Origin: Octopus vulgaris
Lineage: Eukaryota
Assembly: GCA_951406725.2 (NCBI GenBank)
Contig: OX597821.1
Location: forward strand, 79,298,001-79,362,000
DNA: 64,000 bases
Direction of reading: 5' to 3'
Shown: positions 2 through 58,622 of the stretch, piece after piece
Position numbering within the stretch: position 1 is the first letter of the stretch
Layout: each line of letters opens with the position of its first letter
Made by a program: the position numbers and the translations under genes
The notes under the pieces: model-generated
The model's input: only the letters and a program-made list of their open reading frames with translations
Databases searched by the model: none
Told to the model about the DNA's origin: nothing

Positions 2-47
<46 letters not shown>

Positions 48-93
48 CATGTATGTAAAACTGTATTTGTGCACGTGTATATTCATTTACTTT

Positions 94-470
94 TTCAGTC
101 ATTTGATTACTGGAATAACGCCTTAACGTGTTTTAGAGGAACAAATCGACCCCATAATTTATTGTTGCCAGACTAGTATTCATTCTATAACTTTCCCTTG
201 TCAACCCGCTCCATAACAGGGACGTAAACACACCAACATCAGTTGTCAAGTGAGAGTGAGGGGGACAAACACAGACACACATAAGTATATACATAGATAT
301 AAGACGTGTTTATTACAGTTACTCTCTACTAAATACACTCACAAGGCCTTGGTCAACCCGAGGATATAGTAGAAGACACTTGCCCAAGATGCCATGCAGC
401 GGAACTGAACCGGAATCTATGTGTTTGGGAAGTTAGTTTCTTACCACACAACCACGTCTCCGTCTTCACA
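94..470 (-). mobile_element. tRNA-derived SINE, degenerate (family 1); duplicated at ~12457-12833
   Basis: Reverse complement of the SINE body at 2762-2930 and 4958-5294 (ggttcagt...cttgggcaagtgtcttctactata...gccttgtgagtg). Confidence 0.75.
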
Positions 471-1174
471 CAGCTCCGCCTCCGCGAGATATAAATATAC
501 ATATATGTGTTTGCGTAAGAGTGTGTGAATGCGTCTGTGTGTATGCAGTGGGGACCCAGGATCTTTTTTGTTTCCAAAAAATTACTATATTAGTTGGGAA
601 TCGCAATTTGTAACAAATGGACACATTTTTATGTATTCTATGTTGTAGCAGACCAGAAACATATAAAACAGTTATGCTCTGAAAAACCTTGGTCCCGGTA
701 CTTTTTTGGTGTTGGATCGGCCAGAAAGGGTGTGACCCGGGCAACTAGGGCAACACCCCTGCCTCAACTACTGGTATCTATGTAGACATGTAAGCTTGCT
801 GCATTTATATGTTGATGGATGGATGGATGGATGGACGCATGTATGCAGGTAAGCTTGATGTATGTATGTATGTATGTATGTATGTATGTATGTATGTATG
901 TATTATGAATGTGTATGCGTGTGTCATTTATTGAGTCACCACTATACAAATGGCAAACAATGCTAATTTCTTTGAGAGAGAAAGTTGTATGAAATATTTG
1001 GAGAAGAGGATTGTTGACTATTTTAGGAGCAAAGCTTTGTTGTTTACTTCACTTGACTTAACATTTAGAACATACTTAAACAACCTGCCACTGTCTTGTG
1101 TCTCGACTACTACAATGTATCAGAATATTAATGCAATGACAAGGACGTAGTACTACAATGTTGTGGTAAACAAC

Positions 1175-1231
<57 letters not shown>

Positions 1232-1323
1232 TATCATCATCAGCTTTATATTATATATGCATATACATAATATGTATATAATACATACATATTTATATGT
1301 GGGCGTATGTATTTATATATATG

Positions 1324-1371
<48 letters not shown>

Positions 1372-1419
1372 TACATATATACATATAGACATACAGATAG
1401 ATAGATAAGATAGATAGAT

Positions 1420-1503
<84 letters not shown>

Positions 1504-1807
1504 GGGATAGATAGATATATTACATGTGTGTGTCCGTGTAACTACAATAAGGGCTTAGAAATAAATTTCCTAGCCATATGCTGAGAAAAAGACGCTAAAT
1601 TGCCTCATCACTGAAAAAAGTCAGAAACACATGTTGAATTCGATGCAACAAGCCAACGGAAATTTTCGATAAGATAATTCTGCATTAGCTAAAATCTGGA
1701 TCTGCCCAAATGCTCTCCCATCTTCAGCGGAAACATACTATAGATATAAATGAGATATTTATTAATGCACATAGGAAAGCGAAACGCAAATCCATAAATA
1801 CGCATAA

Positions 1808-2623
1808 ATTCCCCATTCTGCTGCCAGTTTGCGTAGACGCAGGCCAGCAAGTGTCCGAGCAAGTCCGGCATACTACGATAAAATTCATAGGGCAGACCAT
1901 CCAGCCCCGGCGACTTGTTCCTGGCGCATTCATCCAGCACATCCCCGACCTCCGCAGCTGTAATCGACTCTTCACCACATTCGGGCTCCCGCGCCGAGAG
2001 TCGCGGCCCGCCGGCGAACAAGTCCTTTAGGGACACACCACGGTCTAGCGCCCCGCTCGTCCCAAACCACCGGTCGAAATCTCTAATGATTAGTCCACGT
2101 CCACTGTGGAACGAGTACCTCACTCAGTCTATATTGGTCTACTAGGTTATAGCTTGCTAGTAGCTTTTTTAGACCAGAACGTCCCCTTCTATCGGTCGAG
2201 CCAACACTATCCACCCCTGCTTCGAGAATAGTGTTAACGTCTCCTACTATATCTAGAGTTTTAGACGTCACCAGAAAGCTCTCCAGGTCTCGAAAAAAAA
2301 AACACCTTGTCTACCCTCTTTCGGAGCGTAGACCGCTAACGACCTAAAGGACTGCTTACTCGCTTGTCACATCTAAGACGACCAACCTAACTTCTCGGTC
2401 CAGAAAGACTGTACTTACCTGTATGTCCAAGCTTTTTCTGAACAACACCACCAGGCCCCCGTCTCCCCGTCGACTAGGAGAAATAAATTTCTCATAGCCA
2501 TTTAGAAGAGACAAGAACCCCTGTGGCCCGTTCAACTTCCACTCAGTCGCAACACATATATCCGGTTCTAGTGAACTGAAGTCGTTCAGGAGACAAGTTT
2601 GCTTCTATTTCGATCTCAGGCCA
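1808..2623 (-). mobile_element. Tx1/L1-like LINE ORF2 fragment (APE endonuclease to pre-RT region), decayed
   Basis: Motifs IVGDVN and NKSPGLDGLPYEFY in minus-strand ORFs. Confidence 0.8.
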
Positions 2624-2949
2624 TCTTCCAATTTTTATTTTCTATTTTGGTTGGGGAAAGGAATTGTAGCTTCGTTTCTGCGCGATTGATGCCCTTATAG
2701 ATTGTTGTTATTTTCTCGGTGCACATCATTCCCCCTTCTGGGAGTGACATGGCTCTCAAGTAGGCGTAGGGGTGGCTGTATGGTAAGTAGCTTGCTTACA
2801 AACCACATGGTTCCGGGTTCAGTCCCACTGCGTGACACCTTGGGCAAGTGTCTTCTTCTATAGCCTCGGGCTGACCAAAGCCTTGTGAGTGGATTTGGTA
2901 GACGGAAACTGGAAGAAGCCCGTCGTATATATGTATATATATATATATC

Positions 2950-3632
2950 AACAGGACCATTTAAGGACCATTAAAAGGACCATTTAAGGCGAATTAAACT
3001 TTTTTGGCTGCTATTTCTACTAAGTTCAGTATGTGGCAAAGTAATTTATTTTACTAAGCCCTAATTATATAATGTAATATTTTGAATTCGCCTTAAATGG
3101 TCCTTTTACATACTGAACACTTGGTGAAATTGATTGATTAATTAATTTTACCCTCAATTGTTAATATTATAATTCATTTCTCTCCGTCATACTGCCTCGG
3201 TTCTCGCGGTTAAAATATAATGTTTGCTAGATAGACCACGTGGGTGGAAAAGGAGTGCAGAAATTTACGCCTGCGCATTTTGAATTTGTTGGCACTGTCA
3301 GTAGGAGCTGGTTCATCTGAAGCGACAAGTACGCCGATGGGTAAAGTTCCTTCTTTTTAGTGTTTCCAAATCCAAATTAAGAAATTTTGAGCTGACGATA
3401 GAAATGCTGATTTTATTTGGCTAATCTTGAAACGTTGACGTACTCAAACGATCTATGTACTTGTGATATTTTTCTGTATTTACCTCCAAACCTTCGTGAG
3501 CTGTCTGGAGTAAACATTATCTGAGAGAAACTTTCTTTAAGTAGTAGAAACGGCTAAAAAAACTTTTGGGCTGCTATTTCTACTAAGTTCAGTATGTGGC
3601 AAAGTAATTTATTTTACTAAGCCCTAATTATA

Positions 3633-3637
<5 letters not shown>
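2950..3637 (+). mobile_element. Retrozyme-like non-coding element, family A copy 1 (563 nt period, ~75 bp terminal direct repeat)
   Basis: Direct repeat ctgctatttctactaag...ccctaattatataat at ~3008 and ~3571; internal hammerhead; flanked by (TA)n; homologous to 29147-30192. Confidence 0.75.
3386..3448 (+). ncRNA. Type I hammerhead ribozyme motif (family A)
   Basis: tttgag CTGACGA [stem II] GAAA cgttgacg TA ctcaaa; stem I tttgag/ctcaaa, GUA cleavage triplet. Confidence 0.8.
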
Positions 3638-3702
<65 letters not shown>

Positions 3703-9125: not shown

Positions 9126-9577
9126 CAGGACAGTGCTTATAGCACCAGGAAGACATCTCCTCCAGTTGGCTAATGACACACAGTCTGTGTCCGATTAGTA
9201 TTTGCAAGGGAGGTCATCGCTCCCATGTCTAGCCTTACGTCATACACCCGGACGCAAGTTTCTTGGTGGCTACCTCCCCTCCCACCGAGCATGTGTTAAT
9301 CACTACCAAGTGATGAAAGTTCATTCCACTCGCAAATTATTATATATTTTTCTAGCGTCTCACAGTCGCTGATCTCGTAAAACGGAGAGATATGTTATTT
9401 TAAATTTAATATAACATATACAGATTTAATACAACGTATCTCTCTCTTTTACGAGATCAGCAACAGTGAGTCGCGAGAAAAGTATATAGTGATTTGGCTA
9501 CAGATGGGAGTTGTGTGTCGTTATTCAGCTGGAGGAGATGTCTTCCTGGGACTATAAGGTACAGTAGCACTGTCCTG
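9126..9577. mobile_element. MITE with long imperfect TIRs and TA target duplication (Tc1/mariner-like)
   Basis: TA|caggacagtgct...ccaggaagacatctcctccag versus ctggaggagatgtcttcctgg...agcactgtcctg|TA; additional internal hairpin 9368-9460. Confidence 0.75.
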
Positions 9578-12363: not shown

Positions 12364-12410
<47 letters not shown>

Positions 12411-13537
12411 CATGTATGTAAAACTGTATTTGTGCACGTGTATATTCATTTACTTTTTCAGTCATTTGATTACTGGAATAACGCTTTAACGTGTTTTAGA
12501 GGAACAAATCGACCCCATAATTTATTGTTGCCAGACTAGTATTCATTCTATAACTTTCCCTTGTCAACCCGCTCCATAACAGGGACGTAAACACACCAAC
12601 ATCAGTTGTCAAGTGAGAGTGAGGGGGACAAACACAGACACACATAAGTATATACATAGATATAAGACGTGTTTATTACAGTTACTCTCTACTAAATACA
12701 CTCACAAGGCCTTGGTCAACCCGAGGATATAGTAGAAGACACTTGCCCAAGATGCCATGCAGCGGAACTGAACCGGAATCTATGTGTTTGGGAAGTTAGT
12801 TTCTTACCACACAACCACGTCTCCGTCTTCACACAGCTCCGCCTCCGCGAGATATAAATATACATATATGTGTTTGCGTAAGAGTGTGTGAATGCGTCTG
12901 TGTGTATGCAGTGGGGACCCAGGATCTTTTTTGTTTCCAAAAAATTACTATATTAGTTGGGAATCGCAATTTGTAACAAATGGACACATTTTTATGTATT
13001 CTATGTTGTAGCAGACCAGAAACATATAAAACAGTTATGCTCTGAAAAACCTTGGTCCCGGTACTTTTTTGGTGTTGGATCGGCCAGAAAGGGTGTGACC
13101 CGGGCAACTAGGGCAACACCCCTGCCTCAACTACTGGTATCTATGTAGACATGTAAGCTTGCTGCATTTATATGTTGATGGATGGATGGATGGATGGACG
13201 CATGTATGCAGGTAAGCTTGATGTATGTATGTATGTATGTATGTATGTATGTATGTATGTATGTATTATGAATGTGTATGCGTGTGTCATTTATTGAGTC
13301 ACCACTATACAAATGGCAAACAATGCTAATTTCTTTGAGAGAGAAAGTTGTATGAAATATTTGGAGAAGAGGATTGTTGACTATTTTAGGAGCAAAGCTT
13401 TGTTGTTTACTTCACTTGACTTAACATTTAGAACATACTTAAACAACCTGCCACTGTCTTGTGTCTCGACTACTACAATGTATCAGAATATTAATGCAAT
13501 GACAAGGACGTAGTACTACAATGTTGTGGTAAACAAC

Positions 13538-13594
<57 letters not shown>

Positions 13595-13686
13595 TATCAT
13601 CATCAGCTTTATATTATATATGCATATACATAATATGTATATAATACATACATATTTATATGTGGGCGTATGTATTTATATATATG

Positions 13687-13732
<46 letters not shown>

Positions 13733-13780
13733 TACATATATACATATAGACATACAGATAGATAGATAAGATAGATAGAT

Positions 13781-13852
<72 letters not shown>

Positions 13853-14972
13853 GGGATAGATAGATATATTACATGTGTGTGTCCGTGTAACTACAATAAG
13901 GGCTTAGAAATAAATTTCCTAGCCATATGCTGAGAAAAAGACGCTAAATTGCCTCATCACTGAAAAAAGTCAGAAACACATGTTGAATTCGATGCAACAA
14001 GCCAACGGAAATTTTCGATAAGATAATTCTGCATTAGCTAAAATCTGGATCTGCCCAAATGCTCTCCCATCTTCAGCGGAAACATACTATAGATATAAAT
14101 GAGATATTTATTAATGCACATAGGAAAGCGAAACGCAAATCCATAAATACGCATAAATTCCCCATTCTGCTGCCAGTTTGCGTAGACGCAGGCCAGCAAG
14201 TGTCCGAGCAAGTCCGGCATACTACGATAAAATTCATAGGGCAGACCATCCAGCCCCGGCGACTTGTTCCTGGCGCATTCATCCAGCACATCCCCGACCT
14301 CCGCAGCTGTAATCGACTCTTCACCACATTCGGGCTCCCGCGCCGAGAGTCGCGGCCCGCCGGCGAACAAGTCCTTTAGGGACACACCACGGTCTAGCGC
14401 CCCGCTCGTCCCAAACCACCGGTCGAAATCTCTAATGATTAGTCCACGTCCACTGTGGAACGAGTACCTCACTCAGTCTATATTGGTCTACTAGGTTATA
14501 GCTTGCTAGTAGCTTTTTTAGACCAGAACGTCCCCTTCTATCGGTCGAGCCAACACTATCCACCCCTGCTTCGAGAATAGTGTTAACGTCTCCTACTATA
14601 TCTAGAGTTTTAGACGTCACCAGAAAGCTCTCCAGGTCTCGAAAAAAAAAACACCTTGTCTACCCTCTTTCGGAGCGTAGACCGCTAACGACCTAAAGGA
14701 CTGCTTACTCGCTTGTCACATCTAAGACGACCAACCTAACTTCTCGGTCCAGAAAGACTGTACTTACCTGTATGTCCAAGCTTTTTCTGAACAACACCAC
14801 CAGGCCCCCGTCTCCCCGTCGACTAGGAGAAATAAATTTCTCATAGCCATTTAGAAGAGACAAGAACCCCTGTGGCCCGTTCAACTTCCACTCAGTCGCA
14901 ACACATATATCCGGTTCTAGTGAACTGAAGTCGTTCAGGAGACAAGTTTGCTTCTATTTCGATCTCAGGCCA
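12364..14972. repeat. Copy 2 of the ~2.6 kb duplication
   Basis: Near-identical to 1-2623. Confidence 0.95.
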
Positions 14973-17940: not shown

Positions 17941-18113
17941 ATGAAGTTTAGGGATACCGTAGAATAAACTTGATCTGCACTTGAAGTTGGTAGTGTAGTC
18001 GTACTCCATGTCTGTGAGTCCTTCTCGGTATGAGTTGAATAATGTCGTGAGGTTATTCATTATTTTTGGTTGGGCCCCTTCGTAGTATGCCTCATATCCT
18101 AATAGGGATAGTA

Positions 18114-18578
18114 CTAAATTTTATAATCATTTCTGTTCATTAATACTACCGCGTTGCTCCCATCTACCAACTTGATTGTTATGGTTTTACCTTCTCTTAG
18201 TTTGATGAGGTCGTTCCATTCTCTTTTGTTGAAGTTTGGTCTGTATTTTTGCTTATTGGGGAGTTGAAAAGGGAGATTGGTTATGTGGTCACAAAAGCGT
18301 TCTAAGGCTTTATTCTTTCCCTTGGTGGGGGTGTAGTCGCTGTTGTTTCTAGCTATTGATTCGTCATCTATTTGTTTGCCATGATATTCCTCGGCAAGTC
18401 TTAATTTCCTACAAAATTCCGAAATATCGTCTTTCGTTTCATAGTAATTTGGACGTTGTGGGGTTGGGATAAATATAAGTCCTTTGGATAGTATGCTTAT
18501 TTCGTTAGGTGTAAGGTCTTTATTTGAGAGATTGATTATTTTAATTACCTGTGGTTTCTTTTGTTTGTCCGTTGCCAT
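18114..18578 (-). pseudogene. Penelope-like RT N-terminal region
   Basis: ORF with the PLE-typical INLS...LSKGL.F.PTP motif, then a degenerate IK.ADKG.AVV motif (IKLVDGSNAVV). Confidence 0.8.
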
Positions 18579-19899
18579 CGTGTATCCCTGTTCCTGTATG
18601 TTAGTCTACAAAATGGTTGGTGTGGTTATGTTGAAAAACAATGTTTATCTGTCTCCTGTTGTAATTTTTAGAGTGGGTTTGTGGTGCTCTGTTTTGTAGT
18701 CTATTTTTGAACCGCGTGTTCCGTCTTAGTGTATCAGGTATATAGTGTTGGTAGTTGTTTCTTCTGTAGTGTTTTTGTTGTTTGTTAAGTTTGTTAAGTT
18801 TGTATGGTTGGTTCCTAGAGTAGAGGTTTGGTAGTTGAGTTTTAGTTGGGTTATGTAGATTGTAGTTCATAGAATTGTGTGTTGCATCCCCATGGTTCTT
18901 GAAATGGTGTGATGGGTCACTGTAGGTGTTTTGGGGTTGATTTAGGTAGTGTGGGGTGCGTTTAAAATGTCTTTCTCTGATAGGCAATGTATTTAGATTT
19001 CTTGGTGGTTGTTCCGTTCTGTTGGCATGTGGTTTTGTTTTTCTTAATTTTATGAAGGGGTTGTTGGACATGTGTTCAGTTTTGAAGTTGGTTTCATAAT
19101 CCAAGAACCATTTGGCGCTCTTTTCCCATCGTTGGAGGGACATTGGTTCCTATTTTTCTTAGTTTAAGTAATATTTCAGTATCGATACCGTCTGATAGTT
19201 TGTTGACTTCATTGATTTCTTCATCCATGGGTTTTACTTCTTCTTCATTCGTCTTTGCTCTCAGTTTAAGTAGTTCAATTTCCATCTTCATTTTTTCTAA
19301 TGACATTTTTTCTCTAAGTCTTCTTTGTGCTTCTGGTTCTTCCCGGATGGGTTTCATTTGTAATTTGCTGGGTATGATTTGGGGTGTTGAGTTCAGCCAC
19401 TTTTGGTAAATCTCTGCTTTATTCTGATCTTGTATTATTTTGCAAAATGCGAATTTTCTGTTTTGCTGCAGTTTTCTCCATTGTGGAAAGACTTGGTTTT
19501 ATATTTGTAATCTTGAAGTTATTGGGTTCTTCCCATGTGGTCCTTCGTTTTGTTGCCCTTGTTTTGTAAAGTTTGTAAAGAATGTCTTCATTGTATCGCA
19601 TAGATTTCCAAGGTGCTCCTACATTTCAGAGGGTGTTTTCTTCGTCTCCGTTTCTTCATTATTTGAGTTGAGTTTGTTTAAGACTGTTATTAGGTCTGAG
19701 TTTTTGCTCTTCAGTTCATTTAGCATCTCTTCATTTATAGAGAAGATGGTGTTTGTGTCTGTTTTAGTCGGCATTTTCAGAAGCTCGTACGTAATATGAT
19801 ATTTATAAAACAAGTGTAGGGGTATACGAGTGGGTATATATTTGTAAAAAAGAAGTTTGAAAACGCCACTATATAAGATAAATTTTAATTTTCTGAGAG

Positions 19900-19949
19900 A
19901 TTTTACATGTTTCGGTCCTTCTTAAAAAAACCAGCCTTATCAAAAAAAT
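19900..19949 (-). ncRNA. Minimal hammerhead variant (U3:A8) in the Penelope UTR
   Basis: ttt TTGATAA ggct ggtttttt-taa-gaaggacc GAAA catg TA aaat; homolog at 36241-36289. Confidence 0.6.
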
Positions 19950-20318
19950 ATAATTTTAAAAGTTAAGTGTAATAAAAGAAAAGTTCCTAATTATTTCTTA
20001 CTAGTCTCAACAAAATCCACGTGGAAGCGTTTTATGTGTGGGAACATAATGGCTGTGTTGTGCGTTGTCTAGAAACGTTGGGTGTAATAGCAGCAGTAGT
20101 AGAGACCTTTGGTCGTAGTGGCTGTAGTAGTGACCGTGATGGTAGTGATGGTTGCAGTTGTAGCAGTAGTTCATAGGCTGTATTAGTAGTAGTAGCAGTA
20201 GTAGTAGAGTGCAAATGACCGCTGGCTGTAATAGCAGCGGTAGCAGAGACCATAGGTCGTAGTAGTATAAGTGACCGTGGTGGTGGGGGGTGGAGTTGTA
20301 GCAGCAGTTCATTGGCTA

Positions 20319-20373
<55 letters not shown>

Positions 20374-20510
20374 CGAAGTGGAAGTGACTGTTGGCTGTAA
20401 TAGCAACAGTTGCACAGACCGTTGATTGCAGTAGTAGTAGAGATCGTGGTGGTAGTGTTGTTTGGAGTTGTAGAATTTTTTTTTTCTTTTTGGATAACCA
20501 ATATATGGTC

Positions 20511-20830
20511 TTAATGTCCCTGGCCCAGGGTGTTTAAACTTGGTCCGAATTTTCTCATGAAATGGAGTTCTTTGTTATGACGTGAAGTGAAGGTTACGTT
20601 GTTTTTGAATTGGTAAAGTGGGAAAGTTGTGAATTTTTGATTTTTCTTTGATGCACATCTGTCTATGTGGCCGCTGACAGGTATTTTCCTGTATTCGGGA
20701 TTCCTAATTTGGGATTTATGTACTGCCATCCTGTTTCGTAGACTGTTTTTTATATGACCAATATATTGCCTATTGCAACCTGCGCATGTTATCACGTAAA
20801 TTAACTTTTCCGATGCACAGATGAAGTTTA
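20511..20830 (-). pseudogene. Penelope-type GIY-YIG endonuclease domain
   Basis: FICASEKLIYVITCAGCNRQYIGHIKNSLRNRMAVH...VSGH...E...GPSLN. Confidence 0.85.
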
Positions 20831-21714
20831 TTCTGATGGAAAAATGATAGCCTTGTTCTAATGTGTATTCCGAACCTTCTGCTATCCCAAATTATGAATC
20901 CTGAATACAGGAACATACCTGTCAGCGGCCACATAGACAGATGTGCTGTCCCCTCTGTGTGAATGGCCGCAGTGGCAAAATAAAGACAGAGAGCGAGTCG
21001 GTGAGCTGTGTAAATCAGGGAGTTGCGTATTGTTGAGTTTAATTACAAGTATTGTGTATCTTGAGTAGAACGATTTGCCAGGAAGTTATTTATTACCCCG
21101 TTATATCGTACGGCGAACGTGCGATACAACAGTATACAAGTAAACTGGGAGTTCTGCAAAAGGGAAACGTAGAATAAGTAGTATGCTTTAAACACGAACG
21201 GGGTTCCATTTCATTGAGTAAAAAACACTTTAAACATGGTCCACAATAAGCTGGAAGGTGTCAGACTCGAACAACTGACAGAATAATATGCTATCCTCCT
21301 CCTTCTCATCATCATCATTGTAACGGTCGTCTATTCATAGTTGCATGGGTCGAAGAGAGTTCAGTGTCCAGATATTCTACACAGGGATGCCCATCCTGTC
21401 GAAACCATCGCCTACTTCGGAGAGAGACAAGGCTTCTTCATGGTTGCACATGTTGATGGCGGCGGTAGAGTCGGGTGGAAGGTGGTGCGGAAATACAAAG
21501 GATGTCGGTAAGTCTGTAAGAAACTAATGAATATCTTACACAGAATTTGAATAAAAGTCGAAACTTTAATAACAAATACAAGGATTAAATACGTATATAT
21601 GGCTTGAATACACGCGCGTATGTATACATTTATACCAGAATGTATGTATGTATGTATGTATGTATGTATGTATGTATGTATGTATGTATGTATGTATGAA
21701 TGTATATGTGTATG

Positions 21715-23168: not shown

Positions 23169-23468
23169 AGGTCCCGGGTTGAGTCGGGGTTAACCACAGT
23201 AAATAAGGTACTCAATACATAGCAGAGTAAATTAATTTATTTTATAGAAGGAGCTTCTACAGGACTAGAACTGTTTCATTCAAAAGAAATCATCAGGAAG
23301 CTAGGTGACAAGAATAGTTTTGGCATTTATACATTTAGGCAGGTTTAAAGGGGTGGTGGTGGGGGACTTTTTGGGGTAGGCATGGCGCAAACTATCATTC
23401 TTCGGGGAGTGGTCAAAGAAATCAGTGATAAAGTAGATAAAAGAATAAATAAAAGAATACATAAAAGA

Positions 23469-23499
<31 letters not shown>

Positions 23500-23570
23500 C
23501 ATATATACATATATATATACATATACATACACATACACACATACATCCATATACACATGTACATATGCAC
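23169..23570 (-). mobile_element. Hammerhead-bearing element family F (inverted partner at ~27579-27866)
   Basis: Non-coding island between microsatellites, reverse complement of 27579-27866. Confidence 0.7.
23252..23302 (-). ncRNA. Type I hammerhead ribozyme (family F)
   Basis: Reverse complement reads agcttc CTGATGA tttc-tttt-gaat GAAA cag-ttctagtc-ctg TA gaagct. Confidence 0.85.
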
Positions 23571-27436: not shown

Positions 27437-27814
27437 CATATACATACACACATGCATACACATACACACACACACGCGCATCTATATATACATAAATACA
27501 TACATGCATAAATGTATACATATGTTTATACATATGCATACACATACACACACACGCGCGCATCCATATATACATGTGGATATGGATGTATGTGTGTATG
27601 TGTATGTATATGTATATATATATGTATATATGTATATATATATATATGTATATATATATATTCTTTTATTTATTCTTTTATCTACTTTATCACTGATTCC
27701 TTTGACCACTCTCCTAAGAATGATAGTTTACGCTATGCCTACCCCAAAAAGTCCCCCACCACCACCCCTTTAAACCTGCCTAAATGTATAAATGCCAAAA
27801 CTATTCTTGTCACT

Positions 27815-27865
27815 AGCTTCCTGATGATTTCTTTTGAATGAAACAGTTCTAGTCCTGTAGAAGCT
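27815..27865 (+). ncRNA. Type I hammerhead ribozyme (family F)
   Basis: agcttc CTGATGA tttcttttgaat GAAA cagttctagtcctg TA gaagct; 6 bp stem I, GUA triplet. Confidence 0.85.
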
Positions 27866-27866
27866 C

Positions 27867-28025
<159 letters not shown>

Positions 28026-29144: not shown

Positions 29145-29428
29145 TATTTCAACAATTGAGGGTAAAATTAATTAATTAATCAATTTCACCAAGTATTCAG
29201 TATGCAAAGGGACCATTTAAGGCGAATTCAAATTATTACATTATATAAAAGGGCTTAGTAAAATAAATTACCTTGCCGCATACTGAACTCATTAGAAATA
29301 GCAGCTAAAAAAACTTTTTAAAACTATTTCCAATACTTAAAGAAAACCTCTCTCATATAGTGTTTACTCAATTCAACTCACGAAAGTATGGGGGTAGAGA
29401 CATTAAAAAATCAAATGCAAAGGTTATT

Positions 29429-29481
29429 TGAGAACGTACGTTTCAAGATTAGTCAAAATCGACACTTCTATCATCAGCTCA
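29429..29481 (-). ncRNA. Type I hammerhead ribozyme (family A)
   Basis: tgag CTGATGA tagaagtgtcgattttgactaatctt GAAA cgtacg TT ctca. Confidence 0.8.
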
Positions 29482-29955
29482 GAATTCCCTGGTTTGGATT
29501 TGAAAACACTGAAAGTGGGAGCATACCCTTTCGGCTTGTTATCGCTTCTGAAGATCTACTCGAAACTAACAGTGCCAACAAACTCAAATATGCAAGCGAA
29601 GAATTTCTGCTCTCCCCTTTCCACCAGCGTGGGTTAAAATCACAAACACTATGCTTTTTTCGGTAAAATCCGAGACATTAAGTAGAGAGAGATGAATTAT
29701 AATTTCAACAATTGAGGGTAAAATTAATTAATTAATCAATTTCACCAAGTATTCAGTATGCAAAGGGACCATTTAAGGCGAATTCAAATTATTACATTAT
29801 ATAAAAGGGCTTAGTAAAATAAATTAGCAGAAATTCTTCGCTTGCATATTTGAGTTTGTTGGCACTGTTAGTTTCGAGTAGATCTTCAGAAGCGATAACA
29901 AGCCGAAAGGGTATGCTCCCACTTTCAGTGTTTTCAAATCCAAACCAGGGAATTC

Positions 29956-30008
29956 TGAGCTGATGATAGAAGTGTCGATTTTGACTAATCTTGAAACGTA
30001 CGTTCTCA
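29956..30008 (+). ncRNA. Type I hammerhead ribozyme (family A, inverted copy)
   Basis: Same motif as 29429-29481; palindromic stem III acgtacgt. Confidence 0.8.
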
Positions 30009-30185
30009 AATAACCTTTGCATTTGATTTTTTAATGTCTCTACCCCCATACTTTCGTGAGTTGAATTGAGTAAACACTATATGAGAGAGGTTTTCTTTAA
30101 GTATTGGAAATAGTTTTAAAAAGTTTTTTTAGCTGCTATTTCTAATGAGTTCAGTATGCGGCAAGGTAATTTATTTTACTAAGCC

Positions 30186-30226
<41 letters not shown>

Positions 30227-45979: not shown

Positions 45980-46010
<31 letters not shown>

Positions 46011-46156
46011 TTATATATAGAGGGCATTATACATACATGCCAGAAGGCATTATACATACATTCCAAACGCTAAGAGGGACAATTAGTCATTTCTACCAAA
46101 AATATTACTAATCCCACCGAATGCAATTTTTCAAAGTAAGACATTTAAAAAAATAT

Positions 46157-46204
46157 AGACCTGTATCACAGTGATTTCATACTTACGTACTCATCAGCAG
46201 GCCT
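46157..46204 (-). ncRNA. Canonical type I hammerhead ribozyme
   Basis: aggcctg CTGATGA gtac-GTAA-gtat GAAA tca-ctg-tga TA caggtct; lies in island 46020-46400 between (TA)n tracts. Confidence 0.88.
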
Positions 46205-46631
46205 GAATGTATTATAAATAAACAGCGACCCTGCCCCGCTTAAGTCGATCAGCTAACTGCTCAACATCAACGAAGCACATGGGTGAGTTTACATATATTA
46301 CATCCGGATAAATGGCAAACTTTTACGAATTGCATTTCGGGAGAGGAAAAGTTTTTTCGGAATAAAAATTTAGCAATTAAGGACAACTACTTAATAAGGA
46401 ATATATATATATATATATATATATGCATACATTACGTCGAACCATTGATCCCTACCCATATTTTTAACCCCGTCCTTTTCTTTTCGTTCTTTCTCCATTT
46501 ACTTCTCTCAGCATTTTCTGTCGAAGAGCGTAGGCTCGAAACGTCATAGGTTTTTCCATTCTTCTCAAATTAAAACATCTGATTGTTCTTTCCTCACCTC
46601 TCTTCGACTTTTGTTTCATGTAAATTTGAAC

Positions 46632-47282: not shown

Positions 47283-47560
47283 ATATGACTGAAGCTGTTA
47301 GAACACCTAAACTGCTAGAAATAAGAGCTAAATGGCTCTGTTGCTGCTGTCAACGCACATATATACCGATCTACATATATACATATATACCGGTCTGGAG
47401 ATGAAACCGTACGGTATACAGATGTCAGTAGTTGTCAGTCGCTGTCATCTACAGTCGCTGCTTGCATGTATGTATAAAATCATATGTGCGTTGACAGCAG
47501 CAACAGAGCCATTTAGCTCTTATTTCTAGCGGCATAGGTGTTGTAACACCTTCAGTCATA
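47283..47560. repeat. Fold-back element with ~75 bp arms
   Basis: tatgactgaag...gctagaaataagagctaaatggctctgttgctgctgtcaacgcacatat and its reverse complement at 47481-47559. Confidence 0.85.
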
Positions 47561-54082: not shown

Positions 54083-57676
<3,594 letters not shown>

Positions 57677-57992
57677 AGTTTGTACTTCTCCAGCAGTCTC
57701 AACTTGTGGTATTTTGCAGTGGTTTCAATCAGTAACTATACATAACTTGCCAATGTTGTGGTGATACGGCTTTCTGCATATTACTTGATGAATAAGGAAA
57801 AGTTTAGTAAAATGCCCAAACCTGACGCATAGAGAGGCGGCTCATGCAAACAGTAAATGCGATGTAGAAATAGTCGGGTATGAGATGGAAGTGAACACAA
57901 AATAAGATCAGATTGGAGCGTTGAATGTAGAGAAATAAATGGGTATAATAGAAAGCCCATTCAAGATTAGGTTACATAAACGTATGTTTAGT

Positions 57993-58503: not shown

Positions 58504-58622
58504 GCTTACAGCCATATCACGTTGAAAACACCGGTTCTCGCCTGATCACCGAAGTTAAGCAACGTCGACCCTAGTAAGTGCTTAGATGGGTGACCGCTTG
58601 GGAAACCTAGGTACTGTAAGCA
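58504..58622 (+). rRNA. 5S: 5S rRNA gene or pseudogene (solitary)
   Basis: 119 nt gcttacagccatatcacgttgaa...gatcaccgaagttaagc...gatgggtgaccg...ctgtaagca; helix I gcttacag/ctgtaagc intact. Confidence 0.92.

What the first reader, a model, noticed from the sequence alone, without database searches (positions are those of the whole stretch)
2950..3637. Family A copies are different circular permutations of one ~560 nt monomer
Seen: this copy has a 563 nt period and ends at ...ccctaattatataat. The copy at 29147-29826 (minus) has a 556 nt period but starts and ends elsewhere in the unit (...ccctcaattgttgaaa). Each is slightly over one monomer with one hammerhead per monomer and no credible ORF. 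Inference: reverse transcription ran more than once around a circular (or multimeric) RNA made by ribozyme cleavage and ligation, the retrozyme signature, here with a monomer longer than typical animal retrozymes.
Basis: partly seen in the sequence, partly recalled or inferred. Interest (0 to 1): 0.85.

Follow-up and report, generated by a model that had tools for sequence, protein, structure and literature searches.

The report
Penelope-mobilised ribozyme repeat, two fixed ends
This is one of more than a thousand copies of a 560-base non-coding repeat with a predicted self-cutting RNA motif; its copies end at one of two fixed points rather than at random, which likely marks where a borrowed Penelope-type enzyme starts copying a probably circular RNA into both strands of the target.

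Summary
The periods (563, 556 nt), one type I hammerhead per unit and the predicted cut at 3442/3443 are real. 'Different circular permutations' is not. Only 5' ends vary; 3' ends sit at two sites about 95 nt apart (E1, E2), next to (TA)n: 103 of 112 arms, with 1,181 exact E2-(TA) junctions genome-wide. The two outer ends are nearly always one E1 and one E2 (40 of 41; 37 of 39 in a position-ordered sample). This is the Penelope-like element (PLE) 'tail plus inverted copy' anatomy, which Frangieh 2024 traced to two internal RT start sites; this tail is about three times the usual length. Units within one insertion are three times more alike than between insertions, and arms run through the ribozyme cut site for up to 10 units. 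That fits rolling-circle RT but also uncleaved multimers. No coding PLE carrying this end was found, and no circular RNA could be tested. Verdict: a new non-autonomous PLE-type retrozyme family whose paired ends bear on how PLEs integrate.

The parts
2948..2998 (-). Abortive inverted arm: 6 nt matching the E2 terminus directly against (TA)n, then three stuttered pieces of the tail (reverse complement of about 3082-3108)
   Evidence: the 6-nt match alone is weak, but it sits at the (TA)n border where E2 ends lie
2999..3636 (+). Subfamily A1 forward arm, 1.13 units of 563 nt, 5'-truncated, ending at E1
3006..3163 (+). Conserved 3' module: motif GRCTGCTATTTC, long stem P1 (3024-3034 with 3108-3118), hairpin P2 (3040-3055), CCCT and site E1 (about 3063-3080) in the P1 loop, hairpin P3 (3123-3152), ACCCT and site E2 (3162/3163)
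   Evidence: fold z -3.87; 94.9% of cells paired in 9 subfamily sequences versus 31-51% when slid, only 2 of 24 pairs with a two-sided change
3074..3163 (+). 'Tail': the stretch between the two fixed 3' ends E1 and E2
3386..3448 (+). Type I hammerhead (core CUGACGA...GAAA, near-palindromic helix III, GUA triplet), predicted cut 3442/3443; predicted to fold correctly as a dimer
   Evidence: no Rfam match; this copy has a U-U at pair 10.1-11.1 where most A1 copies have A-U
3637..3669 (.). (TA)n target tract on the 3' side; a second one lies before 2948
29147..29826 (-). Subfamily A2 arm, 1.22 units of 556 nt, ending at E2 (29147) against (TA)n; hammerhead cut predicted at 29433/29432
29827..30190 (+). 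Inverted arm of the same A2 insertion, 364 nt, ending at E1 against (TA)n; second hammerhead, cut predicted at 30004/30005
   Evidence: 100% identical to 29248-29611

Best explanation
It is a non-coding, hammerhead-bearing repeat of about 560 nt whose copies end at two fixed sites in (TA)n tracts and which is likely copied in trans by a Penelope-like RT-endonuclease from a probably circular RNA. Shown: the unit, the two ends, their one-each pairing in inverted copies, random 5' truncation, read-through of the ribozyme cut site, and homogeneity of units within an insertion. Inferred: multimeric transcripts are cut by the hammerhead (likely as a dimer) and ligated to monomer circles. The PLE protein binds the three-helix 3' module and nicks both strands of a (TA)n tract. 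One nick primes at E2 and the other at E1 on the same RNA. Each RT runs upstream for a variable distance, sometimes many laps, and the two cDNAs join head to head. If one primer fails, a direct copy or a stub results, as at 2948-2998.
For: Ends: 103 of 112 scorable arms end at E1 or E2, 98 of these 103 against (TA)n; 1,181 exact E2-(TA) junctions, control 0; depth in a large run of unstated kind falls about 7-fold just after E2. Pairing: 40 of 41, 37 of 39, 5 of 5 in divergent subfamilies. One template: arm versus own partner 0.87% mismatch, versus other insertions 2.9%; units within 0.93% and 0.58%, between 3.12% and 2.12%. Two RNA-primed events: 9 of 40 pairs have lengths that exclude fold-back either way. 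10 of 55 non-duplicate E2 arms are 80-110 nt, stopping near E1, versus 3-4 in neighbouring bins (counted by hand, post hoc). Laps: a 10-unit array with 0.08% unit mismatch ends at E1. Ribozyme: helix I pairs 4.63 of 5 in 19 variants versus 1.3-2.3 when slid, register set without helix I. Unit folds at z -4.5 to -5.6. Known: two internal RT starts give the PLE tail and both strands are extended (PMC11167929); inverted copy, tail at one end, (TA)n targets (PMC8557442); animal retrozymes form circRNAs (PMC7229834).
Against: No coding PLE with this end was found in about a dozen lineages inspected, so the enzyme is unidentified. No cleavage or circular RNA was shown. In vitro the Anolis PLE used uncleaved RNA and showed no strand bias in start site (PMC11167929). 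Eight of nine Xenopus retrozymes did not cleave (2026 bioRxiv). 31 of 40 pairs are also compatible with fold-back by length, and 8 of 40 have both 5' ends within 15 nt (p 0.001). Exceptions exist: two E2/E2 insertions. The A1 monomer's lowest-energy fold sequesters the core, and A2's helix I has a mismatch. Tandem arrays long enough to template most arms as linear RNA exist.
Confidence: 0.6

Rival explanations
1. Same element and enzyme, but the template is an uncleaved linear multimer read from tandem source loci; the hammerhead and circles are not needed for insertion.
For: Uncleaved RNA was the dominant substrate for the Anolis PLE in vitro (PMC11167929). Arrays of 5 and about 10 units exist. 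Homogeneous young arrays would also give homogeneous daughters.
Against: Linear copying can only shorten arrays and cannot spread a new variant to all units, yet many homogeneous haplotypes exist: 157 and 96 variants shared by all units of an insertion, 23 of them seen in no other sampled insertion, and a 545-nt variant fills a whole array. The hammerhead is kept with compensatory changes across all subfamilies. Unequal crossover or gene conversion could still homogenise arrays.
Confidence: 0.27
2. The inverted arm is made by fold-back or self-priming of one cDNA and trimmed at E1 by the endonuclease, not by a second RNA-primed RT (one template, one primer).
For: Self-priming was proposed from palindromic junctions (PMC3846280), and endonuclease resolution for the tail (PMC8557442). 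Arms are near-identical; 8 of 40 pairs stop at the same position; 31 of 40 fit by length.
Against: 9 of 40 pairs cannot be fold-backs either way (one borderline). E1 also ends direct copies with no inverted partner. The PLE tail ends are RT start sites in vitro (PMC11167929).
Confidence: 0.1
3. The unit is only the pseudo-LTR of a coding PLE, and these are 5'-truncated stumps of that element.
For: The anatomy is that of PLE ends; many coding PLE families are active in the genome.
Against: Arms longer than one unit run back into the same unit, never into an ORF. 0 of 60 E2 termini and 0 of 20 variant loci lead into RT or endonuclease sequence.
Confidence: 0.03

Closest known systems
Metazoan non-LTR retrozymes (PMC7229834; bioRxiv 10.64898/2026.07.22.740005)
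   Same: Non-coding tandem units, one type I hammerhead per unit, GC under 45% (34-35% here), structured unit, dimer-type ribozyme as in axolotl, proposed PLE helper.
   Different: Here most sampled copies are dispersed 0.1-3-unit insertions with PLE-type inverted arms and two fixed ends. The text I read of those papers links retrozymes to PLEs by co-occurrence and pLTR similarity, not by insertion anatomy. Expression and circles are untested here, and no similar pLTR was found.
Endonuclease-positive Penelope-like elements: pLTR, inverted 5' copy and tail (PMC8557442, PMC3846280); Poseidon of Anolis carolinensis (PMC11167929)
   Same: 5' truncation, partial tandems, head-to-head inverted copy, tail at one end only, AT-rich or (TA)n target, termini downstream of a hammerhead.
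   Different: No ORF; tail about 95-105 nt instead of 30-40; ends about 195 and 285 nt past the ribozyme cut; near-strict one-each pairing of ends, whereas the Anolis enzyme showed no strand difference in vitro.
Non-autonomous Chlamys PLEs such as MRC1 (PMC8557442, passage)
   Same: Non-coding, multicopy head-to-tail insertions mobilised by a PLE.
   Different: Those generally share 3' sequence with an autonomous family, and that group lacks canonical hammerheads; here a hammerhead is present and no sharing partner was found.
L1 twin priming (recalled, not looked up)
   Same: Second primer on the opposite strand gives a head-to-head inversion.
   Different: The L1 second priming site is opportunistic and arms do not overlap; here it is a fixed site and arms overlap by up to a whole unit.

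Membership tests
Metazoan non-LTR retrozyme | Type I hammerhead in each unit | tested here: met
   Core and covarying helix I in 19 variants; core found upstream of 176 of 285 module motifs. No Rfam match.
Metazoan non-LTR retrozyme | Tandem units, at least dimers with complete ribozymes | tested here: met
   Arms of 2-3 units, arrays of 5 and about 10 units.
Metazoan non-LTR retrozyme | No coding capacity, low GC | tested here: met
   A1 longest ATG ORF 34 aa, GC 35%. A2 antisense 92-aa ORF has no Pfam match and is not shared with A1.
Metazoan non-LTR retrozyme | Self-cleavage of the transcript | not testable with these tools
   Only a predicted dimer fold with open core for A1.
Metazoan non-LTR retrozyme | Monomeric circular RNA in vivo | not testable with these tools
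   Only assembled contigs of runs with a guessed RNA label were available.
Non-autonomous EN+ Penelope-like element | 5'-truncated partial tandems with a head-to-head inverted copy | tested here: met
   43 inverted insertions in 64 regions; 40 of 60 in the position-ordered sample.
Non-autonomous EN+ Penelope-like element | Optional tail at one end (two fixed 3' termini) | tested here: met
   about 95 nt, longer than the published 30-40.
Non-autonomous EN+ Penelope-like element | AT-rich or (TA)n target | tested here: met
   98 of 103 E1/E2 ends abut a TA run. Target duplications cannot be read in (TA)n.
Non-autonomous EN+ Penelope-like element | Terminal sequence shared with a coding PLE in the same genome | tested here: inconclusive
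   Not found in about a dozen lineages nor at 60 E2 termini; only top hits and sampled loci were seen.
Autonomous PLE | RT plus GIY-YIG ORF | tested here: not met
Plant-type LTR retrozyme | Type III hammerhead in LTRs | tested here: not met
   Helix I is the open helix; no LTR-internal-LTR layout.

The most novel reading that the evidence does not exclude
PLE integration is programmed twin priming. One RNP, plausibly the predicted RT dimer, holds one circular RNA by a three-helix module that presents two start sites, and commits one site to each strand of the cut. Every complete insertion then has one tailed and one tail-less end. A superfamily of more than 10,000 motif copies with 480-594-nt units records this, and a ~160-nt module would be a minimal cis signal for rolling-circle insertion into (TA)n.
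Probability: 0.4. Interest if true: 0.7.

Novelty: new member of a known kind. Interest (0 to 1): 0.45.

Why it matters
How PLEs make their tandem, inverted and tailed insertions is named as an open question in PMC8557442 and PMC11167929, and PLE mobilisation of animal retrozymes rests so far on co-occurrence and sequence similarity. This family gives insertion-level evidence that a retrozyme is moved by PLE machinery. It also gives a countable rule (one E1 end and one E2 end per inverted insertion) and a short structured RNA with two mapped start sites that can be tested directly in the published in vitro assay. The element class itself is known.

Tried and rejected
Random permutation of ends: rejected. 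Pile-up of 5' ends at the ribozyme cut, expected for linear cleaved monomers: not seen (3 of 62 versus 2.3 expected; 3 of 40 versus 1.5; 2 of 58), although two A2 inverted copies have both arms stopping within 11 nt of the cut. Scars at the cut site from template jumping: 0 indels in 102 passes, but the median window elsewhere is also 0, so this is weak. Rfam: no hammerhead model matched. Expression: no RNA holder listed; three runs with a guessed RNA label, contigs only, showed the same 3'-heavy profile as the large run, so nothing follows for expression or circles. Partner search through GIY-YIG and RT queries, flanks and variant loci: PLE hits near copies lay outside the (TA)n-bounded insertions. 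One further PLE fragment (in L246) was not used as a query. The MAFFT alignment of hammerheads was off by one column for some rows, so pairs were counted by anchoring on the core instead; the list required helix I pairing and is not used as evidence. A2 antisense ORF: treated as chance (no Pfam match, not in A1, copies too young to test selection). Literature: searches for Penelope+octopus+hammerhead, cephalopod+hammerhead ribozyme, Penelope-like+twin priming+inverted and Penelope+pLTR+tail+inverted+mechanism listed no description of this family or of strict end pairing; the library lacks most subscription papers and Repbase was not available.

Full report
Observation. The window is G000:C8:79298001-79362000 of a 2.8-Gb genome in 227 contigs. 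It is microsatellite-rich, and I took it for an octopus-like genome (my guess, untested). The copy at 2950-3637 has a 563-nt period and the copy at 29147-29826 a 556-nt period; the two are 79% identical overall and 93% in a 163-nt segment. Two corrections. In the first copy only about 75 nt are directly repeated; 2948-2998 is inverted material. The second copy continues to about 30190 as a 364-nt inverted arm identical to 29248-29611. Both copies sit between (TA)n tracts. The first copy has a near-identical twin 18 kb upstream with the same flanks, a segmental duplicate.

Ribozyme. I located cores upstream of the family's conserved motif without using helix I (176 of 285 motifs with enough flank, 19 distinct variants). 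Helix I then pairs 4.63 of 5 on average, against 1.3-2.3 in slid registers, with G-C/A-U/C-G swaps and a self-complementary helix III segment throughout. The A1 monomer folds with the core sequestered, while two copies co-fold into the dimer form with an open core (-28.4 versus 2 x -9.8 kcal/mol); the A2 co-fold did not give the full form. Axolotl retrozymes cleave better as dimers (PMC7229834, passage). Cleavage here is predicted only.

Ends. Three own-genome searches (40 best of 1,531, 387 and 889 candidates) gave 90 loci, merged to 64 regions with 114 arms. Two arms ran off the fetched DNA. Of 112, 45 end at E1, 58 at E2 about 95 nt further on, and 9 elsewhere; 98 of the 103 abut a TA run. 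These sets favour long, query-like copies, and the query requires the tail. 5' ends are scattered. An exact E2-(TA) junction occurs 1,181 times, control 0. So the two window copies differ because one ends at E1 and the other arm at E2, not because entry points are random.

Pairing. Of 43 inverted insertions, 40 have one E1 and one E2 outer end, 1 is E2/E2 and 2 ran off the edge (one end at unit position 15 counted as E1). To reduce selection I fetched 60 of the first 66 E2 junctions listed on contig C1 (6 skipped as already held). Of these, 40 were inverted: 37 with E1 at the other end, 1 E2, 1 other, 1 off the edge. 18 were direct and 2 unassigned, one of which reads by eye as E1 plus a short E2 stub. 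Three of the 60 are duplicates. Divergent subfamilies behave alike, 5 of 5. The window's first copy fits too: E1 on the right, and on the left six bases of the E2 end against (TA)n followed by stuttered tail pieces.

Template. Units and arms of one insertion differ by 0.93% (A1, 33 of 40 insertions scorable) and 0.58% (A2, 19 of 22), versus 3.12% and 2.12% between insertions. An arm differs from its own partner by 0.87% and from other insertions' arms by 2.9%. Arms cross the ribozyme cut: 25 of the 26 that reach it, with no pile-up of 5' ends there. An array of about 10 units of a 545-nt variant has 0.08% unit mismatch and ends at E1 on (TA)n. Nine of 40 pairs have arm lengths that exclude fold-back in either direction; 31 do not, and 8 have both 5' ends within 15 nt. 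Ten of 55 non-duplicate E2 arms stop near E1 (80-110 nt), against 3-4 in neighbouring bins, a post-hoc hint that both primers sat on one molecule; AT-rich microhomology at E1 could also cause it. These data require a circle or an uncleaved multimer. I favour the circle because linear copying alone cannot spread new variants to all units or lengthen arrays (inference).

The 3' module and the superfamily. The segment most conserved between subfamilies spans both ends. It folds at z -3.87 into a long stem enclosing a small hairpin and E1, then a hairpin leading to E2; both ends follow a CCCT motif by about 5-20 nt. In 9 subfamily sequences 94.9% of cells pair, versus 31-51% when slid; only 2 of 24 pairs show two-sided changes and the sequences are related, so support is moderate. 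A second group with 480-nt units has a like layout. The motif pattern occurs 10,271 times, control 0, and the full module 5,307 times; these count motifs, not insertions.

Helper. The genome holds many coding PLEs with RT and GIY-YIG domains, including intact 781-aa ORFs and frames over 1,000 aa. None of about a dozen lineages (my grouping by eye) showed the module at its 3' end, and for one the end was not reached. None of 60 E2 termini leads into a PLE ORF; one had a PLE fragment outside the insertion. The partner is therefore unidentified.

Comparison. PMC8557442 (12 of 15 passages seen) and PMC3846280 (9 passages) describe 5'-truncated partial tandems, an inverted 5' copy and a 30-40-bp tail often at one end only. 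PMC11167929 (parts 1-2 of 4 read: abstract, main text, start of methods; supplements not opened) shows that a PLE protein nicks and extends both strands and starts at two internal sites that bound the tail, with no strand difference and with uncleaved RNA as main substrate. PMC7229834 (passages and Discussion) shows circRNAs from animal retrozymes and proposes PLE helpers. The 2026 bioRxiv survey (parts 1-3 of 5; supplements closed, and they could list similar families) gives units of 51-972 bp and links retrozymes to pLTRs by phylogeny. It works like a PLE end, and it meets every testable retrozyme feature; RNA-level features are untested. Different from the descriptions I saw: the tail length, the defined three-helix module, and the near-strict one-each pairing. 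Four searches listed no account of these.

Verdict. Observation partly confirmed; interpretation partly supported. New member of a known kind, interest 0.45. I put the identity as a PLE-mobilised retrozyme at about 0.9 and the full mechanism (circle plus paired priming) at 0.6.

Noticed in passing
window 46010-46400 (-), core at 46197: An unrelated compact type I hammerhead (4-bp helix II with tetraloop) in a ~390-nt element between (TA)n tracts; probably another PLE stump or retrozyme.
   Followed up: no
window 23250-23567 and 27565-27867: Two copies (91% identical, inverted to each other) of a ~320-nt element with a hammerhead-like core at 23296 (-) and 27821 (+).
   Followed up: no
window about 18100-20900 (-): Decayed coding PLE with a GIY-YIG domain (20511-20891), related to an abundant family with intact 781-aa ORFs whose 3' hammerhead-like motif begins UUGAUAA instead of CUGAnGA.
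   Followed up: partly
window 46-2623 and 12409-14972: Near-identical local duplication (99.8% over 1,375 nt and 100% over 1,123 nt); the region of the finding also has a twin 18 kb upstream. Recent segmental duplication or assembly redundancy.
   Followed up: partly
window 54148-57678, 47284-47560, 9333-9496: Several palindromic AT-rich elements, at least two of them next to (TA)n; possibly further head-to-head PLE-type stumps.
   Followed up: no
window 29388-29666 (+): 92-aa antisense ORF of subfamily A2; an ORF of 80 aa or more is on that strand in 16 of 18 long arms; no Pfam match.
   Followed up: partly
A2 unit positions 447-453: Hot spot of 5' ends (7 of 40 arms; 2 more) at the base of a predicted hairpin: an RT stop or microhomology site.
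   Followed up: no
L062, L128, L104, L200, L201: Family copies often sit in (TA)n tracts at or inside coding PLE copies, as expected if they share a target.
   Followed up: partly
window 58504-58622 (+): 5S rRNA match (Rfam RF00001, 99 bits), probably a dispersed copy.
   Followed up: no
L249:2091-7070 and L300: Long near-identical arrays (about 10 units; more than 5 units as an inverted arm): best candidates for multi-lap RT products or source loci.
   Followed up: partly
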